A program made the translations under genes and the position numbers. From the UHGV virus genome UHGV-1967114: a stretch of 35,477 nt of DNA; one strand, 5' to 3'. Position 1 is the first letter of the stretch. Each line of letters begins with the position of its first letter. The notes under the pieces were generated by a model. The model did no database searches and was not told the DNA's origin. It worked only from the letters and a program-made list of their open reading frames with translations. Below are positions 1-35,477 of this stretch, piece by piece. The stretch comes from a virus.

Positions 1-263
1 CTGAAGCGTTGACCCAGGGCGAAACAGTTGCTGAAGCGATGGAAGCGGCAAAAGATGCTTTACTGACCGCATTTGATTTTTATTTTGAAGATAATGAGCT
101 AATCCCGTTGCCTTCGCCATTAACTAACAACGATCACTTTATTGAAGTACCTTTGAGCGTCGCCTCTAAAGTATTGCTGTTAAATGCTTTTTTACAGTCA
201 GAAATCACTCAGCAAGAGTTAGCCAGGCGAATTGGCAACCCGAATGTAGTCAACCCAAAATAA
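1..263 (+). CDS. hicB: HicB-family antitoxin, 5' portion of a gene interrupted by prophage insertion (truncated by window start); ORF now ends in 8 phage-derived codons (NPNVVNPK) then stop
   Basis: In-frame translation ...TQGETVAEAMEAAKDALLTAFDFYFEDNELIPLPSP...SEITQQELARRIG matches my recollection of E. coli HicB N-domain plus first half of an XRE-type HTH; second half of the HTH is found at 35268..35381 on the same strand. Confidence 0.75.
   Translation, partial: EALTQGETVAEAMEAAKDALLTAFDFYFEDNELIPLPSPLTNNDHFIEVPLSVASKVLLLNAFLQSEITQQELARRIGNPNVVNPK
231..246. other. attL junction: host ATTGGC - AA - phage CCCGAATG; putative 2-bp crossover AA at 237-238
   Basis: hicB reading frame diverges immediately after codon GGC-AA; compare attR at 35261..35276 where hicB frame resumes after AA. 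Confidence 0.55.
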
Positions 264-434
264 CTAAAAATTTTGCAATAAAAAGCCCCATCACAAGGAC
301 AGGGCTATAGAATCAATGAATTAGAAGAATTCTATAGCAACTGAGTCGCAATTAACACCATAAGAAATGAACTTAGGAACTAACTAGTAATATTCAGGCG
401 TTTAACTATCTCTGATTGTATTATGTCGCCTCTA

Positions 435-1229
435 TCATTTTTTCTCTACACAAGAATATTTCCATTCGATTTCCTTTCCGGTACGGTTGTCAACATAAAT
501 ATGATGATAGTCCAGTGTTCTTACATCATCAACCATCTTATCACCGGAATATGTTTTTCCGTGTTGTGCGTATAACTCTACACCAGTTTTTGTAGTTTTT
601 GACATGAATCCATCAGCGTCAATATTCATTTCCACTACAACTGGGGGGTGCATCGTTCCAGAAATTAGAAGTTTTGCCTTGTCTTTGTTTTTATCGATTA
701 CAATTTTTGTGTTTTCTTTCACTATATCACGATCTTCTACACTCAGTCCGTCAATTGTGGTTATCTTAACTACTTTCGGACAAATATATACGAAGTTGCT
801 ATTTGGGGACTTTTCCAGAACAACTTGTTTCTCTTTGGTTTTTAGAGTTTCTACTGCCTTCGGTTGTTCTTCTTCAACCTTCGCAGAAGTCTCTGAATCG
901 CTTTCTGACGCGGTTTCTTCTTTAGATAATACATCCATCAAGTTTTGGATTTGAGCGTTGTATACAGCCTCCAGTGGCTGAATCTGCCCGATATTGATCA
1001 TTGTATCACGAACAGTTTTATTCCAGTTGCGTTGCTCTTGTTTAAGCGACGGATCAATCTTAACAGCCTTAACATATACTTCATGAAGTTTAGAGTCCAG
1101 TGCGGAGATTGACTCATTAGCACAAATAAACTTCTCTGATTTGGTAGTAGCTTTAGTGCAATCGAAGGATGCAGCATTAGCACCGAATGCAGTAGCAGAA
1201 AGAACGATAGCAGCGATAATGTTTTTCAT
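435..1229 (-). CDS. Secreted protein with N-terminal LprI/DUF1311-like domain (signal peptide MKNIIAAIVLSATAFGANA) and C-terminal Cys-containing domain; probable moron
   Basis: Signal peptide; motif C-x(n)-EKFIC...LD..L...Y....QR.W...RD typical of DUF1311; RBS AGAGG upstream of ATG on minus strand. Confidence 0.6.
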   Translation of the reverse strand: MKNIIAAIVLSATAFGANAASFDCTKATTKSEKFICANESISALDSKLHEVYVKAVKIDPSLKQEQRNWNKTVRDTMINIGQIQPLEAVYNAQIQNLMDVLSKEETASESDSETSAKVEEEQPKAVETLKTKEKQVVLEKSPNSNFVYICPKVVKITTIDGLSVEDRDIVKENTKIVIDKNKDKAKLLISGTMHPPVVVEMNIDADGFMSKTTKTGVELYAQHGKTYSGDKMVDDVRTLDYHHIYVDNRTGKEIEWKYSCVEKK

Positions 1230-30802: not shown

Positions 30803-31150
30803 ATGGCTAAAAATATTTTCACTGAATTTCCTACTTATCCGGTCGATCAGCTTTCCGGTATTTTTATTAATGGCATTAGCCCAGAATCAATGACCTATGA
30901 TTTTGAGGCGAAGAGAGTTAAACATAAACAATATAAAGAATGTATCCGCGATCATGAAAAAGGGACCGTGTTTTGTGTCGCTACATTGGCTAAACGTCCT
31001 AAGTATCGTTTTCGTGTCGGGCAAGAAGTCGATGTAGTTAATCCTTATAGCTTTAACTGTCTGGGTGATGCACGCGCGGTGTGTGTAGGCACTGCTCCTT
31101 ATTATATCAAGGGTATGCGCTTTATTGGTTATATCTTCGAAATGATCTAA
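30803..31150 (+). CDS. Hypothetical protein
   Basis: 115-aa ORF with RBS GGAGG. Confidence 0.55.
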   Translation: MAKNIFTEFPTYPVDQLSGIFINGISPESMTYDFEAKRVKHKQYKECIRDHEKGTVFCVATLAKRPKYRFRVGQEVDVVNPYSFNCLGDARAVCVGTAPYYIKGMRFIGYIFEMI

Positions 31151-31159
31151 GGGGGTAAT

Positions 31160-31513
31160 ATGTTAAGTAAGCATTTTTCTCGCAAGGAATTTAAATGTAG
31201 ATGCGGAAAATGTGATTATGATACTATCGATGCTGAATTACTGGTAATTCTTGAGGATGTACGAGAACACTTCGGGAAACCAGTTATTATTAACAGTGGC
31301 AACCGTTGCCCGACTCATAACAAGAATGTAGGCGGGGCAGCCAATAGCTATCACGTTCGAGGCCGCGCGGCTGACATTGTTATCAAGGGTGTCTCACCTG
31401 ATATTGTTCATGCTTATCTTGATGGGAAATATCCTACTCAATACGGCTTAGGAAAATATAAAACATTTACGCATATCGATTCCAGATCGAAAAAATCACG
31501 ATGGAATGGATAA
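31160..31513 (+). CDS. Peptidase M15 family (Peptidase_M15_3-like) cell-wall hydrolase; endolysin candidate
   Basis: Motif SGNRCPTHNKNVGGAANSYHVRGRAADIV ... FTHID matches zinc-binding H/D/H signature of M15 peptidases (recollection). Confidence 0.65.
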   Translation: MLSKHFSRKEFKCRCGKCDYDTIDAELLVILEDVREHFGKPVIINSGNRCPTHNKNVGGAANSYHVRGRAADIVIKGVSPDIVHAYLDGKYPTQYGLGKYKTFTHIDSRSKKSRWNG

Positions 31514-31518
31514 AATTA

Positions 31519-31545
31519 AAGCGCCTCTAGTGGGCGCTTTTTTGT
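31519..31545 (+). terminator. Intrinsic terminator ending the late operon (AAGCGCC-TCTAGTG-GGCGCTT + T6)
   Basis: GC stem and TTTTTTG immediately after stop of 31160..31513. Confidence 0.7.
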
Positions 31546-31710
31546 TAGAATATGCTGGCGACGTTAGCTATATTTCTGACCATTTTTTCATTATAGACAA
31601 ATATACCGCAGACGATAAAGTCGTTTTTGACGAAGCCGTCTCTGGTTGAAGTAATGAAAGAACCGGAAGACCTAGAGCTTGATTTAAGCCCATTAGAGAC
31701 TCTCTAACGC

Positions 31711-31741
31711 AATTAAATTAAAAAGGGGTACGAATTACCCC
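31711..31741 (-). terminator. Intrinsic terminator for minus-strand recombinase-side operon (GGGGTA-CGAAT-TACCCC with T-run on minus strand)
   Basis: Hairpin preceded on plus strand by AATTAAATTAAAAA; located downstream of minus-strand stop at 31780. Confidence 0.5.
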
Positions 31742-31779
31742 TTAAAGCGTTTGGTTCGTTATACGGCGATTTAGGCCGC

Positions 31780-32052
31780 CTATGATTTATTTTCTTGTTC
31801 TATGAAAATCTTTCTCACCTCATCAGAATAAATGTCTAGTGATTCCTCATAACATTTTCTGTATTCACCGTAATTACTGGTGGTCTTTTGACATAGCAAT
31901 TTCAATGTTTTATGTGCTCCATCAATGAAAGCATCTTCTCTATAGGTTAGCGGTCTACGCATTTCTTGGTCTACGGTTGCCAATGCCAGGCAAGAATTCA
32001 TAGATAAAATCAAACCTAAAATCTTAATCATCTTCATTAGCTTAAATTCCAA
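31780..32052 (-). CDS. Small secreted protein (signal peptide MKMIKILGLILSMNSCLALA), Cys-containing
   Basis: Hydrophobic N-terminus with ALA cleavage-like site; overlaps 3' end of recombinase gene. Confidence 0.5.
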   Translation of the reverse strand: MEFKLMKMIKILGLILSMNSCLALATVDQEMRRPLTYREDAFIDGAHKTLKLLCQKTTSNYGEYRKCYEESLDIYSDEVRKIFIEQENKS

Positions 32053-33721
32053 ATTCCTGTAATGGACCTGGTATTTCTTCTTCTGGTTTCCAGTTCTTAT
32101 CTGTCAGCATGTCTAAACATGGATGCAGAACAAGCCCGTTACTCTCCAGAATCTGCCTATCATTGATAGTCTTCAAATCAATGAAGATCCGGCCTTTCCT
32201 CGGTCCTCTTGAATTTTCTATTACAACTCTCTGGGTCTTGCCATCGATGTATTCCAATACAAACAAGTTTTTGTACTTGTCAATCCTGCTACACCCGATC
32301 CGTTTTAGAGCTTGCTTAATCTTAAACCGGACCTTAATGCGATCCTCGTTGTAAACATCTTCTAAATCAAATTCTGCGAGCTTCTCCCAGCCTTGAGAGT
32401 CAACAGAATACATTTCCTCTTCTGCCATCTTAATTTGATTGTAGAGTGTTTCACGCTCGCTATTGAGGGTAGTAATCTGATCGGCTAGCTCCTTCGTTGC
32501 TCCTGTCATAGCAGAAAGGGTAATCAGGTTATCAATCTTGCGTGATATTTCATCAATCTGTACTTTCAAAGCCGGAACCGGATTAGCCTTATCTTCAGCA
32601 ATCCAGATTTTATCAGCCAGCAATTGCAATACAGCTTTCTCTAATTGGTCGCCGCGAAAACTCCAGTTTGTATGCACACATTCAATACGACTAGAGCGCA
32701 TTGCATCGCATGAATAACGATATTGGTTAGGCCGTCTGTTTGTTCCTTTCACCTTAACCATAGCGGAACCGCAATGTTCACATTTCAATAGACCAACACC
32801 ACTAAGCAAGGGAATAGGTTTAACTTCTTCTTTGTCTCCAAAGTTACATGCTCTAACACCAATGCTTTTCTTAAGGTGATAAAACTCAGCGTCATCTAGC
32901 ACACGAGGATAATAATCCTTTAACTCATACTTAACGCCATCTACAGAGATTTCCTTGATACCAATCAAAGCGCGGGTATGGAACAACCTTTCAATCATTG
33001 CCCGTGACCAGTTTGAATGCCTCTTGTGACTTGCGGCTGGTGGTGGTGTGTATGTCGCGTTAAGGTGATCCAGTATCTCGGCGGTTGACCGTCCATTCCT
33101 GCGTAATTCCACAACTTCCTGAACAATAGGGAAGAAGACCGGATGAGGAAGCACATAACCAGATGTGGTATCAGTCCACCACATATTCTTTCCAATTTCC
33201 TCGATTGCAACAGCCGGATTTTGTGGATTTTCTTGATGAGCTTTAATCTTAATCAGTGCGCTTGAGTTAGTACGATTGCGCTTAGTCTGGCTTTCCTCAT
33301 TACCACGGATGAATAAAAGGATGGAGAACATCAGGTCCATCGGGTTAGCGGTAACAGTATCCAGCGAGTAGATCTTGTTATCCATGCCAGTAACAATGGT
33401 TATCCCCCTACGGATGATTGAAAGGAATAACTCCTGCGCACTGACAATATCGGCACGGGATAAACGGTCCAAGTTTTCGATGAATAGCCAGCTACCAACA
33501 GGAACGGATCTACCTATTGCATCAAGGAAACGAGATAGCGCCCCTGTTTTGGAGTTAGCACCCTTAAACGCAGATACACCCAGATCCTGATAATCATTTA
33601 CCAGTTCAAGGTCATACTTTACCGCAATCTCTCTAGCCATCCTGATTTGTCGTTCATAACTCGAACCATCATTCTGACGCATAGACGAGAAGCGAATATA
33701 CGAATACAGTTTAGTTTTCAT
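32042..33721 (-). CDS. Large serine recombinase (probable prophage integrase); start taken at ATG 33721
   Basis: N-terminal resolvase-type motif YIRFSSMRQ (catalytic Ser), central recombinase region, zinc-ribbon CEHCGSAMVKV...YRYSCD...IECVH; 559 aa. Confidence 0.85.
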   Translation of the reverse strand: MKTKLYSYIRFSSMRQNDGSSYERQIRMAREIAVKYDLELVNDYQDLGVSAFKGANSKTGALSRFLDAIGRSVPVGSWLFIENLDRLSRADIVSAQELFLSIIRRGITIVTGMDNKIYSLDTVTANPMDLMFSILLFIRGNEESQTKRNRTNSSALIKIKAHQENPQNPAVAIEEIGKNMWWTDTTSGYVLPHPVFFPIVQEVVELRRNGRSTAEILDHLNATYTPPPAASHKRHSNWSRAMIERLFHTRALIGIKEISVDGVKYELKDYYPRVLDDAEFYHLKKSIGVRACNFGDKEEVKPIPLLSGVGLLKCEHCGSAMVKVKGTNRRPNQYRYSCDAMRSSRIECVHTNWSFRGDQLEKAVLQLLADKIWIAEDKANPVPALKVQIDEISRKIDNLITLSAMTGATKELADQITTLNSERETLYNQIKMAEEEMYSVDSQGWEKLAEFDLEDVYNEDRIKVRFKIKQALKRIGCSRIDKYKNLFVLEYIDGKTQRVVIENSRGPRKGRIFIDLKTINDRQILESNGLVLHPCLDMLTDKNWKPEEEIPGPLQEFGI

Positions 33722-33730
33722 ACCATTTCC

Positions 33731-33770
33731 AAACAAAAACGCCCCTACCGCGTATTATAACGATAGGGGC
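33731..33770 (-). terminator. Terminator-like hairpin between secreted-protein gene and recombinase gene (minus strand)
   Basis: GCCCCTA...TAGGGGC stem with 16-nt loop, followed on minus strand by GTTTTTGTTT. Confidence 0.45.
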
Positions 33771-33784
33771 TAGGTGATTAAAGA

Positions 33785-34204
33785 TTAAAGAATTTCACGG
33801 CAGCTAATCAGGGTATAAGATGTATCACCTTTTTTAACATCAAATATAGGAGCGCCATCTACAGAATGCAGATATTTGATGTAAGACTTACCATCTTCGG
33901 AACCATAATATTCTTCTTTCTCGTTCTTATCTTCTTTCAGTTTCGGGCTTTTGATTGTTTTATCAAATACCGGATCGTTGAAAGCAAATTGACTATTATC
34001 ATCATTCACTCGAACCTTTACACCGATAAAACCACGGTATTTGCCAGACGGCGCATGATAATAACGGTCGCCATCACTCAGGTAGCGTGTATCATCTCCT
34101 TTATATTCGAAGTAGGAATTGCACACATAATAGGTATAGGTATTAGCATTTGCAGCACCAACCAAACCCAGAGCAAGAACGATACCAGCGATAATCTTTT
34201 TCAT
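33785..34204 (-). CDS. Secreted protein (signal peptide ...LVGAANA), two Cys; possibly related to C-terminal domain of 435..1229
   Basis: Signal peptide; Y-V-C near N-terminus and I-S-C near C-terminus as in the 264-aa protein (FVYIC...KYSC). Confidence 0.6.
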   Translation of the reverse strand: MKKIIAGIVLALGLVGAANANTYTYYVCNSYFEYKGDDTRYLSDGDRYYHAPSGKYRGFIGVKVRVNDDNSQFAFNDPVFDKTIKSPKLKEDKNEKEEYYGSEDGKSYIKYLHSVDGAPIFDVKKGDTSYTLISCREIL

Positions 34205-34515
34205 AGTAGAATTTCCTCTTGTTGTTTGAATTACGATATATTTATATCGTTAAAAATTGATGCTAATTACCAGACCAAACACAACCGCACCAATCAAATC
34301 AATCCAGTTAATACACAATCCGCTATATTCTTTCTTGAATGTCTTAGATGAAATGCCATCATGAAATTGTTTCATTGCTCACCCCATACTAACGACAAGA
34401 TAAGAAAGACTAATAATAGTTGTGAGACTACCTCCCACGAATGAGATAAAAGCTAACATGTTTGATTCTCCATTTAAAAAGCGGTGGGAATTACACCCAC
34501 CAAATTAGAAATTAA

Positions 34516-34953
34516 TTAAGCGCGAACGATGGTCAGAGTATCCAGCAAACCTTTTTCGTATAATTCAAAACACGTTTTATATTGCTCAATCTGGAAACCA
34601 TAGCGGGTGATCTTATTCAGTAGAACAATCACGGTATTCTCATCTAGGTATTGTCCTTGCTTACCAATTACATATGACTCGCGGGATAGTCTCAGCTTAC
34701 GGAAACCTTTAACACCTAATTCCTTAGCCACCGCTTTAATCTCGTTAATCTCACCTTCTGCGGCTACATATTCAGCGTCGATAATATCAGTTGATGATCT
34801 CAGTGCTACCAGAACTAAAGCCATTGCTTCTTCTTCGGTACGAGCAACACCAGCTTTCTCGAAAGTCATCTCACCAAATTTACGAATCATGATATTGAAC
34901 ATTGTCTGTATTCCGTTTAAATCGGCGGGAATAGTACCCGCCAAATTAGACAT
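34516..34953 (-). CDS. Hypothetical protein (145 aa), second gene of attR-proximal two-gene operon
   Basis: Start overlaps upstream stop (TAATG); no recognizable motif. Confidence 0.55.
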   Translation of the reverse strand: MSNLAGTIPADLNGIQTMFNIMIRKFGEMTFEKAGVARTEEEAMALVLVALRSSTDIIDAEYVAAEGEINEIKAVAKELGVKGFRKLRLSRESYVIGKQGQYLDENTVIVLLNKITRYGFQIEQYKTCFELYEKGLLDTLTIVRA

Positions 34954-35249
34954 TACTTCTTGCTGATAAACTCTTTAGCGATAAAGTTGATTACTTCTTT
35001 CAGCTTCTTGTCTGTATCGATGCACGCTGGTAATTCTTCTTTAATATCCTGCGGCAGATACACATTCCCTTTAAAGTGGAGGAAACCATCATTACCAATC
35101 ATGTAGGAGAACATCCATTCACAATCGTTATCCGCTTCCCAGAACGCCACGGTCTCATCGTCAATCAAGGTAATGTCCATGTTGCGACGTGCTGCGTAGT
35201 TGATGATTGCTTTACCGATGTTCATTGTTGTACCCCCTCGTGTTATCAT
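34953..35249 (-). CDS. Hypothetical protein (98 aa), first gene of attR-proximal two-gene operon
   Basis: ORF begins 18 nt inside attR; RBS GGGGGT; no recognizable motif. Confidence 0.55.
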   Translation of the reverse strand: MITRGGTTMNIGKAIINYAARRNMDITLIDDETVAFWEADNDCEWMFSYMIGNDGFLHFKGNVYLPQDIKEELPACIDTDKKLKEVINFIAKEFISKK

Positions 35250-35267
35250 GGGTACATGATATTAGGG

Positions 35268-35381
<114 letters not shown>

Positions 35382-35459
35382 TTACAGTTAACGAAAAGTT
35401 GTCATTTTTAACAACTGATATAGACTGCCGAATCATCTGCACATAATTACGATTCGATA

Positions 35460-35477
35460 ATGAAAAAATACCAGCAG
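35460..35477 (+). CDS. Start of a downstream host gene (partial, MKKYQQ...)
   Basis: ATG at 35460 at window edge; only 6 codons visible. Confidence 0.25.

What the first reader, a model, noticed from the sequence alone, without database searches (positions are those of the whole stretch)
34205..35249. attR-proximal translationally coupled two-gene operon plus two tiny membrane peptides: candidate accessory (defence, anti-defence or toxin-antitoxin) cargo
Between the serine recombinase and attR, on the minus strand, a 98-aa and a 145-aa ORF overlap by TAATG (34951-34955) and have no recognisable function. Just downstream are two small ORFs (minus strand ~34379..34459, 26 aa, and ~34250..34375, 41 aa) encoding hydrophobic peptides. 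Integrase-adjacent positions are common sites for defence or lysogenic-conversion cargo, and small hydrophobic peptides resemble membrane-active toxins.
Basis: inference. Interest (0 to 1): 0.55.

Follow-up and report, generated by a model that had tools for sequence, protein, structure and literature searches.

The report
Swappable early genes beside prophage end
At the right end of an E. coli prophage lie two small genes that come and go independently and are shared with virulent phages, plus two conserved tiny membrane-protein genes; all appear to be driven by a promoter that exists only while the phage DNA is not integrated, and their function is still unknown.

Summary

- **First gene:** it is really 90 aa (start 35225, phrog_6147).
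- **Second gene:** its conserved form is 128 aa (start 34902). The 145-aa form comes from a T>G change in a duplicated terminator hairpin.
- **Independence:** in related prophages at hicB, ycdX and codB, the two genes occur together, singly, or replaced. That argues against a toxin-antitoxin pair.
- **Relatives:** both have homologues in virulent coliphages. In RB49 each sits behind its own consensus-like early promoter. No Pfam, NCBIfam, PADLOC or fold match gives a function.
- **Tiny ORFs:** both are real genes. Divergent relatives keep them under purifying selection, always with the serine recombinase.
- **New observation:** the 90-aa start codon lies about 43 nt from the crossover. No promoter is detectable in the lysogen, but rebuilding attP gives a sigma-70 promoter (TTGACT-17-TATCAT). 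An equivalent promoter appears in all four reconstructed attP types.

Best reading: swappable early accessory genes, probably host-takeover or counter-defence, sit at the head of an integrase operon that integration switches off. The expression logic and the function are inferred, not shown.

The parts
34953..35225 (-). p90 gene: 90 aa, acidic (pI 4.7), phrog_6147.
   Evidence: SD GAGGGGG at 35233-35239. PGAP start. PHROG E 3.6e-33 from residue 9. 22-sequence alignment A1. AF2 pLDDT 91, alpha-beta4-alpha fold. 423 phage records.
34915..34952 (-). 38-nt duplicated copy of terminator hairpin 1 (stem GGCGGG/CCCGCC, weak U-tract). It supplies the ATG that makes the 145-aa ORF and the TAATG overlap.
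   Evidence: Absent in PEC41 and L018; reads TAATT instead of TAATG in E275a. Folds at -15.5 kcal/mol.
34516..34902 (-). p128 gene (conserved start MFNIMIRKF; the 145-aa ORF runs to 34953). It has an acidic, low-confidence helical N-part and a basic ~80-aa C-domain (phrog_14908, 'p128C').
34472..34502 (-). Intrinsic-terminator hairpin 1 (GGTGGG-7 nt-CCCACC plus CTTTTT). It is invariant in the nine E. coli loci of alignment A4 and follows whichever cassette is upstream.
34379..34459 (-). ORF26: 26-aa hydrophobic micro-protein (MLAFISFVGGSLTTIISLSYLVVSMG) with a GGAG Shine-Dalgarno.
   Evidence: Kept as a 26-27-aa ORF in divergent loci (MNLLISFV..., MSVLISFA...). pN 0.37 against pS 0.75.
34250..34375 (-). 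ORF41: 41-aa micro-protein with an invariant N-terminal peptide MKQFHDGISSKTFKK and a C-terminal transmembrane helix.
   Evidence: In-frame indels and synonymous changes, including TCT to AGC for Ser. N-half pN 0.09 against pS 0.72. Present in all 25 IMG/VR loci. Lies directly upstream of the recombinase in L050-L053.
34233..34250 (.). Near-invariant palindrome ACGATATA-AA-TATATCGT (one C/T variant), overlapping the ORF41 stop and just upstream of the variable cargo gene. Possible operator; function unknown.
   Evidence: Nearly invariant in the nine E. coli loci of alignment A4, with one C/T variant in three loci.
33785..34204 (-). Variable cargo slot. Here it holds a 139-aa signal-peptide protein. 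Relatives carry 81-aa, 113-aa or 348-aa (3x CapR + MUG113-like) proteins instead.
33731..33770 (-). Hairpin 2: a strong terminator-like hairpin (-20.5 kcal/mol, TATAAT in the loop) immediately upstream of the recombinase start.
   Evidence: Compensatory A-T to C-G change in L051.
32042..33721 (-). Large serine recombinase (Resolvase + Recombinase + Zn_ribbon_recom), the constant partner of ORF26 and ORF41.
35256..35269 (-). attR phage arm carrying the -10 half of the proposed attP-spanning promoter (TATCAT, 35261-35256), and the crossover dinucleotide (35268-35269).
   Evidence: TATAAT at the same place in L3Cip3, TATCAT in the ycdX and codB types.
237..253 (-). attL crossover (237-238) and the -35 half of the proposed promoter (TTGACT on the minus strand, 253-248).
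277..306 (-). Left-end minus-strand terminator. It insulates the proposed promoter from the variable left-end gene (a 264-aa LprI-like protein) and is part of the 87-nt conserved left end.

Best explanation
The region is the 5' part of an attP-proximal integrase operon that has become a hot spot for swappable small genes.

**Constant core.** The core is: an 87-nt left end, attP, a leader with a ribosome-binding site, terminator hairpin 1, ORF26, ORF41, hairpin 2, and the serine recombinase.

**Inserted cassettes.** Two independent cassettes sit between the leader and hairpin 1.
- p90 belongs to phrog_6147.
- p128 is an acidic N-extension fused to the phrog_14908 domain.

Both belong to the pool of small immediate-early genes of virulent coliphages.

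**Proposed expression (inferred).** A sigma-70 promoter has its -35 on the left phage arm and its -10 on the right arm. It therefore exists only on unintegrated phage DNA, at injection or after excision, and integration destroys it.

**Proposed function (inferred).** p90 and p128 are most likely made in the first minutes of infection and act by binding host factors, for host takeover or counter-defence. They are probably not protecting the lysogen.

**Tiny proteins.** ORF26 and ORF41 are genuine membrane micro-proteins tied to the recombinase module. Their role is unknown; it may involve establishment of lysogeny or regulation of the integrase.

**Shown:** the anatomy, the cassette variability, coding selection on the micro-proteins, the homologues in virulent phages, and the sequence-level promoter.
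**Inferred:** promoter activity, timing of expression, and the biochemical role.
For: **Cassette independence**
- Among 25 usable IMG/VR loci, 13 have both genes, 7 only p128 and 5 only p90.
- L3Cip3 and the codB prophage lack p90. L006 lacks p128. L051 and L052 carry only the standalone 81-aa C-domain, with or without p90.

**Homologues are early genes of virulent phages**
- p90 is found in 423 phage records, including Drexlerviridae, phi92 gp242, Phapecoctavirus and RB49-like phages.
- p128C is found in 57 RB49-like records.
- In RB49, p194 (p90-like) and p190 (p128C-like) lie 1.2 kb apart on the same strand. Each sits about 40 nt downstream of an 11/12 sigma-70 promoter.
- In Bas11, the homologue opens an operon after a 690-nt intergenic region.

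**Promoter**
- The p90 start codon is about 43 nt from the crossover.
- No promoter scoring 8/12 or better exists in attR or attL, and none scoring 9/12 or better on the minus strand of 33600-35477.
- Reconstructed attP gives TTGACT-17-TATCAT (window and ycdX types), TTTACA-18-TATAAT (L3Cip3) and TTGACC-16-TATCAT (codB).
- Only 11 sites scoring 10/12 or better occur in the whole window on both strands, about 1 per 6450 nt.
- Three different host genes are unlikely each to supply a promoter.

**Micro-proteins are coding**
-.

**No defence or TA signature**
-.
Against: - There are no transcript or reporter data.
- The attP junction was never seen in IMG/VR or metagenome contigs, so it is only reconstructed.
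- Both promoter hexamers lie inside the arms that the recombinase must bind. Their conservation could reflect recombinase recognition rather than promoter function.
- L050 has a degenerate -10 (TACTCT).
- The recombinase must also be expressed from the prophage for excision. An undetected promoter must therefore exist, and it might drive these genes in lysogens.
- Downstream cargo genes on the same strand (secreted proteins, a CapR/MUG113-like protein) look like lysogen-expressed morons, yet they also lack a detectable promoter.
Confidence: 0.45

Rival explanations
1. Lysogen-expressed cargo: p90, p128 and/or the tiny peptides are made from the integrated prophage. They would protect the host (defence or superinfection exclusion) or change its surface (lysogenic conversion).
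For: - The position next to the integrase is a cassette hot spot.
- Neighbouring variable genes are secreted proteins, a 3x CapR + MUG113-like protein and an LprI-like lysozyme inhibitor, all typical moron content.
- The simple promoter scan could miss non-consensus or activator-dependent promoters.
Against: - No promoter was detected in the integrated configuration, and three unrelated host contexts flank the module.
- Homologues are early genes of strictly virulent phages, each with its own promoter.
- No PADLOC hit for the pair.
Confidence: 0.2
2. Toxin-antitoxin modules: p90/p128 form a type II pair, and/or ORF26/ORF41 are type I membrane toxins stabilising the prophage.
For: - The genes are small and adjacent, with a 4-nt overlap in this window.
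- ORF26 and ORF41 are hydrophobic (GRAVY 1.72 and 0.51).
Against: - Each of p90 and p128 occurs alone in many relatives.
- The overlap is a single-base accident.
- No toxin or antitoxin domain was found.
- There is no antisense promoter or terminator and no Rfam sRNA over the tiny ORFs.
- ORF41 has an invariant hydrophilic N-peptide, which suggests a specific partner rather than generic membrane damage.
Confidence: 0.05
3. Recombination accessory factors: the small proteins control the directionality or expression of the serine recombinase (RDF-like or regulatory).
For: - ORF26 and ORF41 are always co-inherited with the recombinase.
- In L050-L053, ORF41 sits about 65 nt upstream of the recombinase, before a conserved hairpin that shows a compensatory change.
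Against: - p90 and p128C occur in virulent phages with no integrase, and are dispensable in many members of this prophage family.
- ORF26 and ORF41 are membrane peptides, unlike known RDFs (own knowledge of gp3, gp47 and SprB).
- An RDF driven by a promoter that forms only after excision would be paradoxical.
Confidence: 0.12
4. Functionally neutral passengers: the cassettes are selfish or decaying small ORFs carried along by recombination at the hairpins, with no role for this phage.
For: - Presence and absence are patchy, and the hairpin duplications mark illegitimate or homologous exchange.
- The N-terminal half of p128 is poorly conserved and modelled with low confidence.
Against: - The p90 family has 16 invariant positions across sequences sharing 44-87% identity, and a confident fold.
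- The p128 C-domain is conserved from prophages to RB49-like phages.
- The ORFs are intact in all copies examined.
Confidence: 0.1

Closest known systems
PHROG 6147 (uncharacterised; includes phi92 gp242, RB49p194, Bas11 gp55, tuntematon gp025)
   Same: p90 matches the profile end to end (E 3.6e-33) and shares the WEADNDCEWMFSY...GNxYLP..IKEELPA motifs.
   Different: Most of the listed members come from virulent phage groups. Here the gene sits about 43 nt from attP in a temperate phage, at the head of the integrase operon. No member has a known function.
PHROG 14908 (~80-aa proteins of RB49-like Krischvirus, e.g. RB49p190)
   Same: Residues 67-142 of the 145-aa ORF match (E 3.6e-18). The same domain stands alone (81 aa) in related prophages L051 and L052.
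   Different: In the window the domain carries a near-unique acidic N-terminal extension of about 50 aa, plus 17 accidental codons.
Phage morons and accessory-gene hot spots next to integrase/att
   Same: Variable gene content between otherwise syntenic relatives, cassettes bounded by terminator hairpins, and exchange points at ribosome-binding sites or start codons.
   Different: Classical morons carry their own promoter and are expressed in the lysogen (own knowledge). Here no such promoter is detectable, and the cassettes appear to use the attP-spanning promoter.
State-dependent integrase promoters of ICEs (ICEKp1, ICEclc, ICEEc1; PMC13023037) and junction promoters of IS circles (IS911-type; own knowledge)
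   Same: A promoter contributed by the far end of the element drives the integrase-side genes only when the two ends are joined.
   Different: - The host here is a temperate phage with a large serine recombinase.
- The -35 and -10 lie on opposite sides of the crossover itself, as in IS circles rather than ICEs.
- The first genes served are accessory early genes.
- Activity is untested.
Type I toxins and other small phage membrane peptides (Hok/Ldr-like; D3 Iap)
   Same: The products are 26-41 aa with one transmembrane segment.
   Different: No antisense RNA signature was found. The genes are strictly linked to a recombinase, and ORF41 has an invariant cytoplasmic N-peptide. There is no sequence similarity to any library family.

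Membership tests
PHROG 6147 | Significant full-length match to the family profile | tested here: met
   E 3.6e-33, residues 9-93 of the 98-aa ORF against profile positions 1-88 of 91.
PHROG 14908 | Significant match to the family profile | tested here: met
   E 3.6e-18, residues 68-142 against profile positions 3-77 of 83. Only the C-terminal domain matches.
Type II toxin-antitoxin pair | The two genes co-occur as an obligate pair | tested here: not met
   13 loci have both, 7 only p128 and 5 only p90 among 25 loci. L3Cip3, the codB prophage, L006 and L051 are further examples.
Type II toxin-antitoxin pair | Recognisable toxin fold/domain and DNA-binding antitoxin | tested here: not met
   No Pfam or NCBIfam hit above cut-off. 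Folds are generic RWD-like and ferredoxin-like.
Type I toxin-antitoxin | Small hydrophobic toxin peptide | tested here: met
   ORF26 GRAVY 1.72; ORF41 has a C-terminal transmembrane helix.
Type I toxin-antitoxin | Overlapping or adjacent antisense sRNA gene with its own promoter and terminator | tested here: not met
   No plus-strand promoter or terminator over 34250-34460, and no Rfam match. Sequence-level test only.
Type I toxin-antitoxin | Toxicity on overexpression | not testable with these tools
   Needs cloning under an inducible promoter.
Known anti-phage defence systems (PADLOC-DB) | Match to a defence protein model | tested here: not met
   No hit for p90, p145, ORF26 or ORF41. The only hit is a weak one (E 0.005, PDC-M63A) for the neighbouring 139-aa protein.
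Recombination directionality factor of a serine integrase | Present wherever the integrase is, and restricted to integrating elements | tested here: not met
   p90 and p128 are optional within the family and have homologues in virulent phages. ORF26 and ORF41 do meet co-inheritance, but they are membrane peptides.
Recombination directionality factor of a serine integrase | Binds the integrase and switches it to attL x attR recombination | not testable with these tools
   Needs in vitro or in vivo recombination assays.
Moron / accessory-gene hot spot | Variable gene content at a fixed position between otherwise syntenic relatives | tested here: met
   Alignments A3, A4 and A6 and the cassette census.
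Moron / accessory-gene hot spot | Own promoter allowing expression from the repressed prophage | tested here: not met
   No sigma-70-like site scoring 9/12 or better on the minus strand of 33600-35477. Consensus scan only.
Junction / state-dependent promoter (IS circles, ICEclc Pcirc, ICEKp1) | Promoter elements on opposite ends that become functional only when the ends are joined | tested here: met
   -35 at window 253-248 and -10 at 35261-35256, with 16-18 nt spacing in all four reconstructed attP types (three independent arm sequences), and nothing in attL or attR. Sequence level only.
Junction / state-dependent promoter (IS circles, ICEclc Pcirc, ICEKp1) | Demonstrated transcription start and state-dependent activity | not testable with these tools
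   Needs 5'-RACE or reporter fusions. The attP junction was not found in public contigs.

The most novel reading that the evidence does not exclude
A clade of large serine recombinases in enterobacterial prophages may carry a topology-gated early operon.
- Its promoter is assembled only on unintegrated DNA and is destroyed by the recombination event it pays for.
- Its first genes (phrog_6147 and phrog_14908) would be new families of counter-defence or host-takeover proteins shared with T1-like, phi92-like and RB49-like virulent phages.
- Its two obligatory membrane micro-proteins (ORF26, and ORF41 with the invariant MKQFHDGISSKTFKK peptide) would be previously unrecognised partners or regulators of the integration step.
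Probability: 0.2. Interest if true: 0.7.

Novelty: new variant of a known kind. Interest (0 to 1): 0.45.

Why it matters
- **A cheap, testable switch.** If the promoter really is split by integration, this phage family has a simple built-in rule: early accessory genes and the integrase are on while the DNA is free and off once it is integrated. The logic is known for IS circles and some ICEs. I found no report of it for a serine-integrase phage (own knowledge and a limited literature search).
- **Two candidate protein families.** The region singles out two small families that are widespread in virulent coliphages (423 and 57 phage records) and have no known role. Both are good candidates for host-takeover or counter-defence screens.
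- **Two unannotated micro-proteins.** It also reveals two conserved micro-proteins that annotation pipelines mostly miss, yet which travel with the recombinase.
- **Annotation caveat.** The 145-aa product and its names ("beta/alpha barrel domain-containing protein", "type I 3-dehydroquinate dehydratase") are not supported.

Tried and rejected
- **Family searches.** Pfam, NCBIfam and PADLOC searches of all six small proteins gave nothing above cut-off. The Rho_N/HTH_6 hits on the 145-aa ORF (residues 69-90) are sub-threshold.
- **Solved structures.** PDB sequence-profile searches with A1 and A2 found nothing below E 0.05.
- **RNA families.** Rfam found no match over 33600-35477.
- **Free phage genome.** Looking for a free phage genome with intact attP failed. 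The phage collection has no DNA relative, and its recombinases are at most 34% identical. All 27 IMG/VR relatives are prophage cut-outs trimmed at gene starts. Exact attP junction patterns were absent from IMG/VR and metagenome contigs.
- **Left-end terminator scan.** A genome-contig scan with the left-end terminator motif hit only unrelated terminators in Pseudomonas and a betaproteobacterial MAG.
- **Literature.** Searches by accession, PHROG id, hicB or ycdX plus prophage found nothing on this element.
- **Bas11 promoter.** No strong consensus promoter was found directly upstream of the Bas11 homologue, so only its operon-first position is used as evidence.
- **PGAP names rejected.** "beta/alpha barrel domain-containing protein" and "type I 3-dehydroquinate dehydratase" have no support from Pfam, NCBIfam or the predicted fold.
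Full report
**What the window is.** The right end (33700-35477) and left end (237-700) of the window are 100% identical to the chromosome of E. coli strain PI7, and 23 complete genomes carry at least 80% of the right end. The annotated record shows a prophage inserted inside the antitoxin gene hicB, with ydcR beyond it. Comparing both ends with intact K-12 hicB (GCGAATTGGCAAACCTAAACAGGAG) places the crossover dinucleotide AA at window 237-238 (attL) and 35268-35269 (attR). The prophage is about 35.0 kb. Reading inward from attR on the minus strand, the order is:
- a leader with a ribosome-binding site
- the 90/98-aa ORF
- the 128/145-aa ORF
- a terminator hairpin
- the 26-aa ORF
- the 41-aa ORF
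- an 18-nt palindrome
- a 139-aa signal-peptide protein
- a strong hairpin
- a 559-aa large serine recombinase

**Checking the observation.** Two corrections are needed.
- The first gene almost certainly starts at 35225 (90 aa, MNIGK). A GAGGGGG Shine-Dalgarno lies 7 nt upstream. PGAP uses this start, the PHROG alignment begins at residue 9 of the 98-aa ORF, and all 22 aligned homologues begin there. The upstream ATG at 35249 reads ACA in relatives.
- The 145-aa reading frame owes its first 17 codons to a 38-nt insertion (34915-34952). This insertion is a copy of the terminator hairpin that follows the gene. PEC41 and L018 lack the copy (TAA, then 12 nt, then ATG). Strain E275a has the copy but reads TAATT, so it has no ATG.

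Most database entries for the second gene are 128 aa, starting MFNIMIRKF at window 34902. AlphaFold gives residues 1-14 of the 145-aa form a pLDDT below 50. The "translational coupling" is therefore a recent single-base accident, not a conserved feature.

**The two larger genes are independent cassettes.** The same recombinase module occurs in prophages inserted in hicB, ycdX and codB.
- Among 25 usable IMG/VR prophage loci, 13 carry both genes, 7 only the 128-aa gene and 5 only a 68-70%-identical allele of the 90-aa gene.
- In L3Cip3 the same leader and ribosome-binding site (ACACGAGGGGGTACAACAATG) runs straight into the 128-aa gene.
- In L006 the 90-aa gene is followed directly by the hairpin.
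- In a more divergent lineage (L051, L052) the position holds an 81-aa protein that corresponds to the C-terminal domain alone, with or without p90 in front.

Obligate pairing, the defining feature of a toxin-antitoxin module, is therefore not met.

**What the proteins look like.** Neither protein has a Pfam, NCBIfam or PADLOC hit.
- p90 is acidic (pI 4.7) and belongs to phrog_6147, of unknown function. Its conserved motifs are WEADNDCEWMFSY, GNxYLP and IKEELPA.
- An exhaustive phmmer search of 1.8 billion representatives found only 20 relatives of the 145-aa ORF. All but the two closest E. coli relatives match only the last ~75 residues, apart from one probably spurious hit to a 2,172-aa protein.
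- The N-terminal ~50 residues are acidic, helical, low-confidence and nearly unique.
- The PGAP names "beta/alpha barrel domain-containing protein" and "type I 3-dehydroquinate dehydratase" are unsupported.

**Relatives in virulent phages.**
- tblastn finds p90 in 423 phage records: T1-like Drexlerviridae, phi92 (gp242) and other large myoviruses, Klebsiella, Morganella and Erwinia phages, and RB49-like T-even phages.
- The p128 C-domain is in 57 RB49-like records.
- In RB49 itself the two homologues (RB49p194 and RB49p190) lie 1.2 kb apart on the same strand, in a run of small genes upstream of the Dam methyltransferase.
- Each RB49 homologue is preceded, about 40 nt upstream, by an 11/12 sigma-70 promoter: TTGACA-17-CATAAT and TTGACA-17-TACAAT. 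This is the pattern expected of immediate-early genes.
- In Bas11 the homologue opens an operon after a 690-nt intergenic region, upstream of a Dcm-like methyltransferase.

These proteins therefore cannot be recombination directionality factors. They belong to the pool of small early accessory genes of coliphages.

**The tiny ORFs are real genes and belong to the core.** The ~310-nt stretch that carries them is present in 58 of 5,426 complete E. coli genomes, and PGAP usually leaves it unannotated.
- ORF41 is in all 25 IMG/VR loci and ORF26 in 24.
- Divergent copies keep both frames. ORF26 reads MLAFISFVGG... here, MNLLISFVCS... in L006 and MSVLISFAAS... in L050.
- ORF41 tolerates an in-frame 3-nt deletion and many synonymous changes, including TCT to AGC for serine. 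Its N-terminal MKQFHDGISSKTFKK is invariant even where the transmembrane half is only about 30-50% identical.
- Nei-Gojobori counts against L050 and L051 give pN/pS of 0.09/0.72-0.75 for the ORF41 N-half and 0.37-0.40/0.75-0.85 for ORF26.
- In L050-L053, ORF41 lies about 65 nt upstream of the recombinase. Only the conserved hairpin separates them, and in L051 that hairpin shows a compensatory A-T to C-G change.
- No antisense promoter, terminator or Rfam sRNA overlaps the tiny ORFs.

They are membrane micro-proteins co-inherited with the recombinase, not swappable cargo, and nothing marks them as type I toxins.

**A promoter that exists only on unintegrated DNA.** The p90 start codon is about 43 nt from the crossover.
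- No sigma-70-like site scoring 9/12 or better lies on the minus strand anywhere in 33600-35477, and none scoring 8/12 or better lies in attR or attL.
- The first 87 nt of the left phage end are conserved in 52 genomes at all three insertion sites, while the adjacent gene varies. That stretch contains a minus-strand terminator followed by a -35-like hexamer.
- Joining the arms at the crossover gives attP (minus strand) ...GGGTTGACTACATTCGGG-TT-CCCTAATATCATGTACCC...ACACGAGGGGGTACAACAATG. This is TTGACT-17-TATCAT, a 10/12 match, with the -35 at window 253-248 and the -10 at 35261-35256.
- The reconstructed attP types give TTGACT-17-TATCAT (ycdX), TTTACA-18-TATAAT (second hicB type, 11/12) and TTGACC-16-TATCAT (codB).
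- Sites this good occur only 11 times in the whole window on both strands.

The likeliest reading is that the operon is transcribed from injected or excised phage DNA and is silenced by integration itself. Three unrelated host genes are unlikely each to supply a substitute promoter. This logic is documented for ICEKp1, ICEclc and ICEEc1 (PMC13023037). From my own knowledge it also matches the junction promoters of IS circles.

The caveats are:
- The attP junction was not found in IMG/VR or metagenome contigs.
- Both hexamers lie within the arms that the recombinase must recognise.
- L050 has a degenerate -10.
- The recombinase must somehow be expressed from the prophage for excision.

**How it most likely works.**
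- Shown: an integrase module with a constant core (left 87 nt, attP, leader, hairpin 1, ORF26, ORF41, hairpin 2, recombinase) and two slots where small genes are exchanged. One slot lies between the leader and hairpin 1 and holds p90, p128, p128C or an unrelated 71-aa gene. The other lies after ORF41, or after ORF26 in the divergent L050-L052 lineage, and holds the 139-, 81-, 113- or 348-aa proteins seen after ORF41.
- Inferred: p90 and p128 are made immediately after DNA entry, or after excision, from the attP promoter. They act by binding host components, for host takeover or counter-defence. Hairpin 1 (-12 kcal/mol, five U) and hairpin 2 (-20.5 kcal/mol) meter how much transcription reaches the micro-proteins and the recombinase.

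My confidence in each step is:

| Claim | Confidence |
|---|---|
| p90 and p128 are independent accessory cassettes | about 0.9 |
| ORF26 and ORF41 are coding | about 0.9 |
| The split promoter is functional | about 0.65 |
| p90/p128 have an anti-host or anti-defence role | about 0.35 |

**Novelty and verdict.** Prophage-expressed defence and toxin-antitoxin readings are disfavoured. The element is a new variant of known kinds: a moron hot spot combined with a junction or state-dependent promoter. The two protein families and two micro-proteins still lack a function. Interest is moderate (0.45).

Noticed in passing
window 1-263 and 35262-35381: The prophage splits the antitoxin gene hicB after about codon 101 of 138. 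The N-terminal part is fused to 8 phage codons (NPNVVNPK*), and the C-terminal ~37 codons (by my own knowledge the DNA-binding part of HicB) are left at attR. Excision would restore hicB. Sister prophages split ycdX or codB in the same way.
   Followed up: partly
window 33785-34204; L007 1812-2858; L036; L016-L030: The slot after ORF41 is polymorphic. The 137-139-aa and 81-aa secreted proteins share the signal peptide MKKIIAG(I/V)VLALGLVGAANA but have unrelated mature parts. Other occupants are a 113-aa coiled-coil membrane protein and a 348-aa protein with three CapR domains (PF21817) and a MUG113-like C-terminus, a possible defence nuclease.
   Followed up: partly
window 33731-33770: The conserved terminator-like hairpin directly upstream of the recombinase start has TATAAT in its loop and shows a compensatory A-T to C-G change in L051. 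How the recombinase is transcribed from the integrated prophage is unexplained.
   Followed up: partly
window 34233-34250: Palindrome ACGATATA-AA-TATATCGT overlaps the ORF41 stop codon and sits just upstream of the cargo ribosome-binding site. It is nearly invariant in the nine E. coli loci aligned (one C/T variant in three loci) but absent from the divergent L050-L052. Possible operator; no binding protein identified.
   Followed up: no
window 435-1229 (minus strand): The gene at the left end is a 264-aa signal-peptide protein with an LprI (lysozyme inhibitor) domain. It is replaced by an unrelated ~100-aa gene in most relatives, so the left end is a second cargo slot.
   Followed up: partly
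L002, L006, L050-L053 versus window 31000-32052: The same recombinase module is attached to different backbones. In the ycdX elements the recombinase is followed by a GIY-YIG/MUG113-like gene and a UvsW-like helicase. In the window it is followed by the lysis cassette. The integration module itself seems to move between phage genomes.
   Followed up: no
L054-L056 (Pseudomonas spp. and a betaproteobacterial MAG): The 27-nt left-end terminator AGCCCTGTCCTTGTGATGGGGCTTTTT occurs identically after unrelated genes in distant bacteria. Whether this is convergence or transfer of a terminator is unknown.
   Followed up: partly
window 35076-35381 (plus strand): A 101-aa ORF runs antisense through the p90 gene and ends with the hicB 3' codons. 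It is a junction artefact, not a gene.
   Followed up: no
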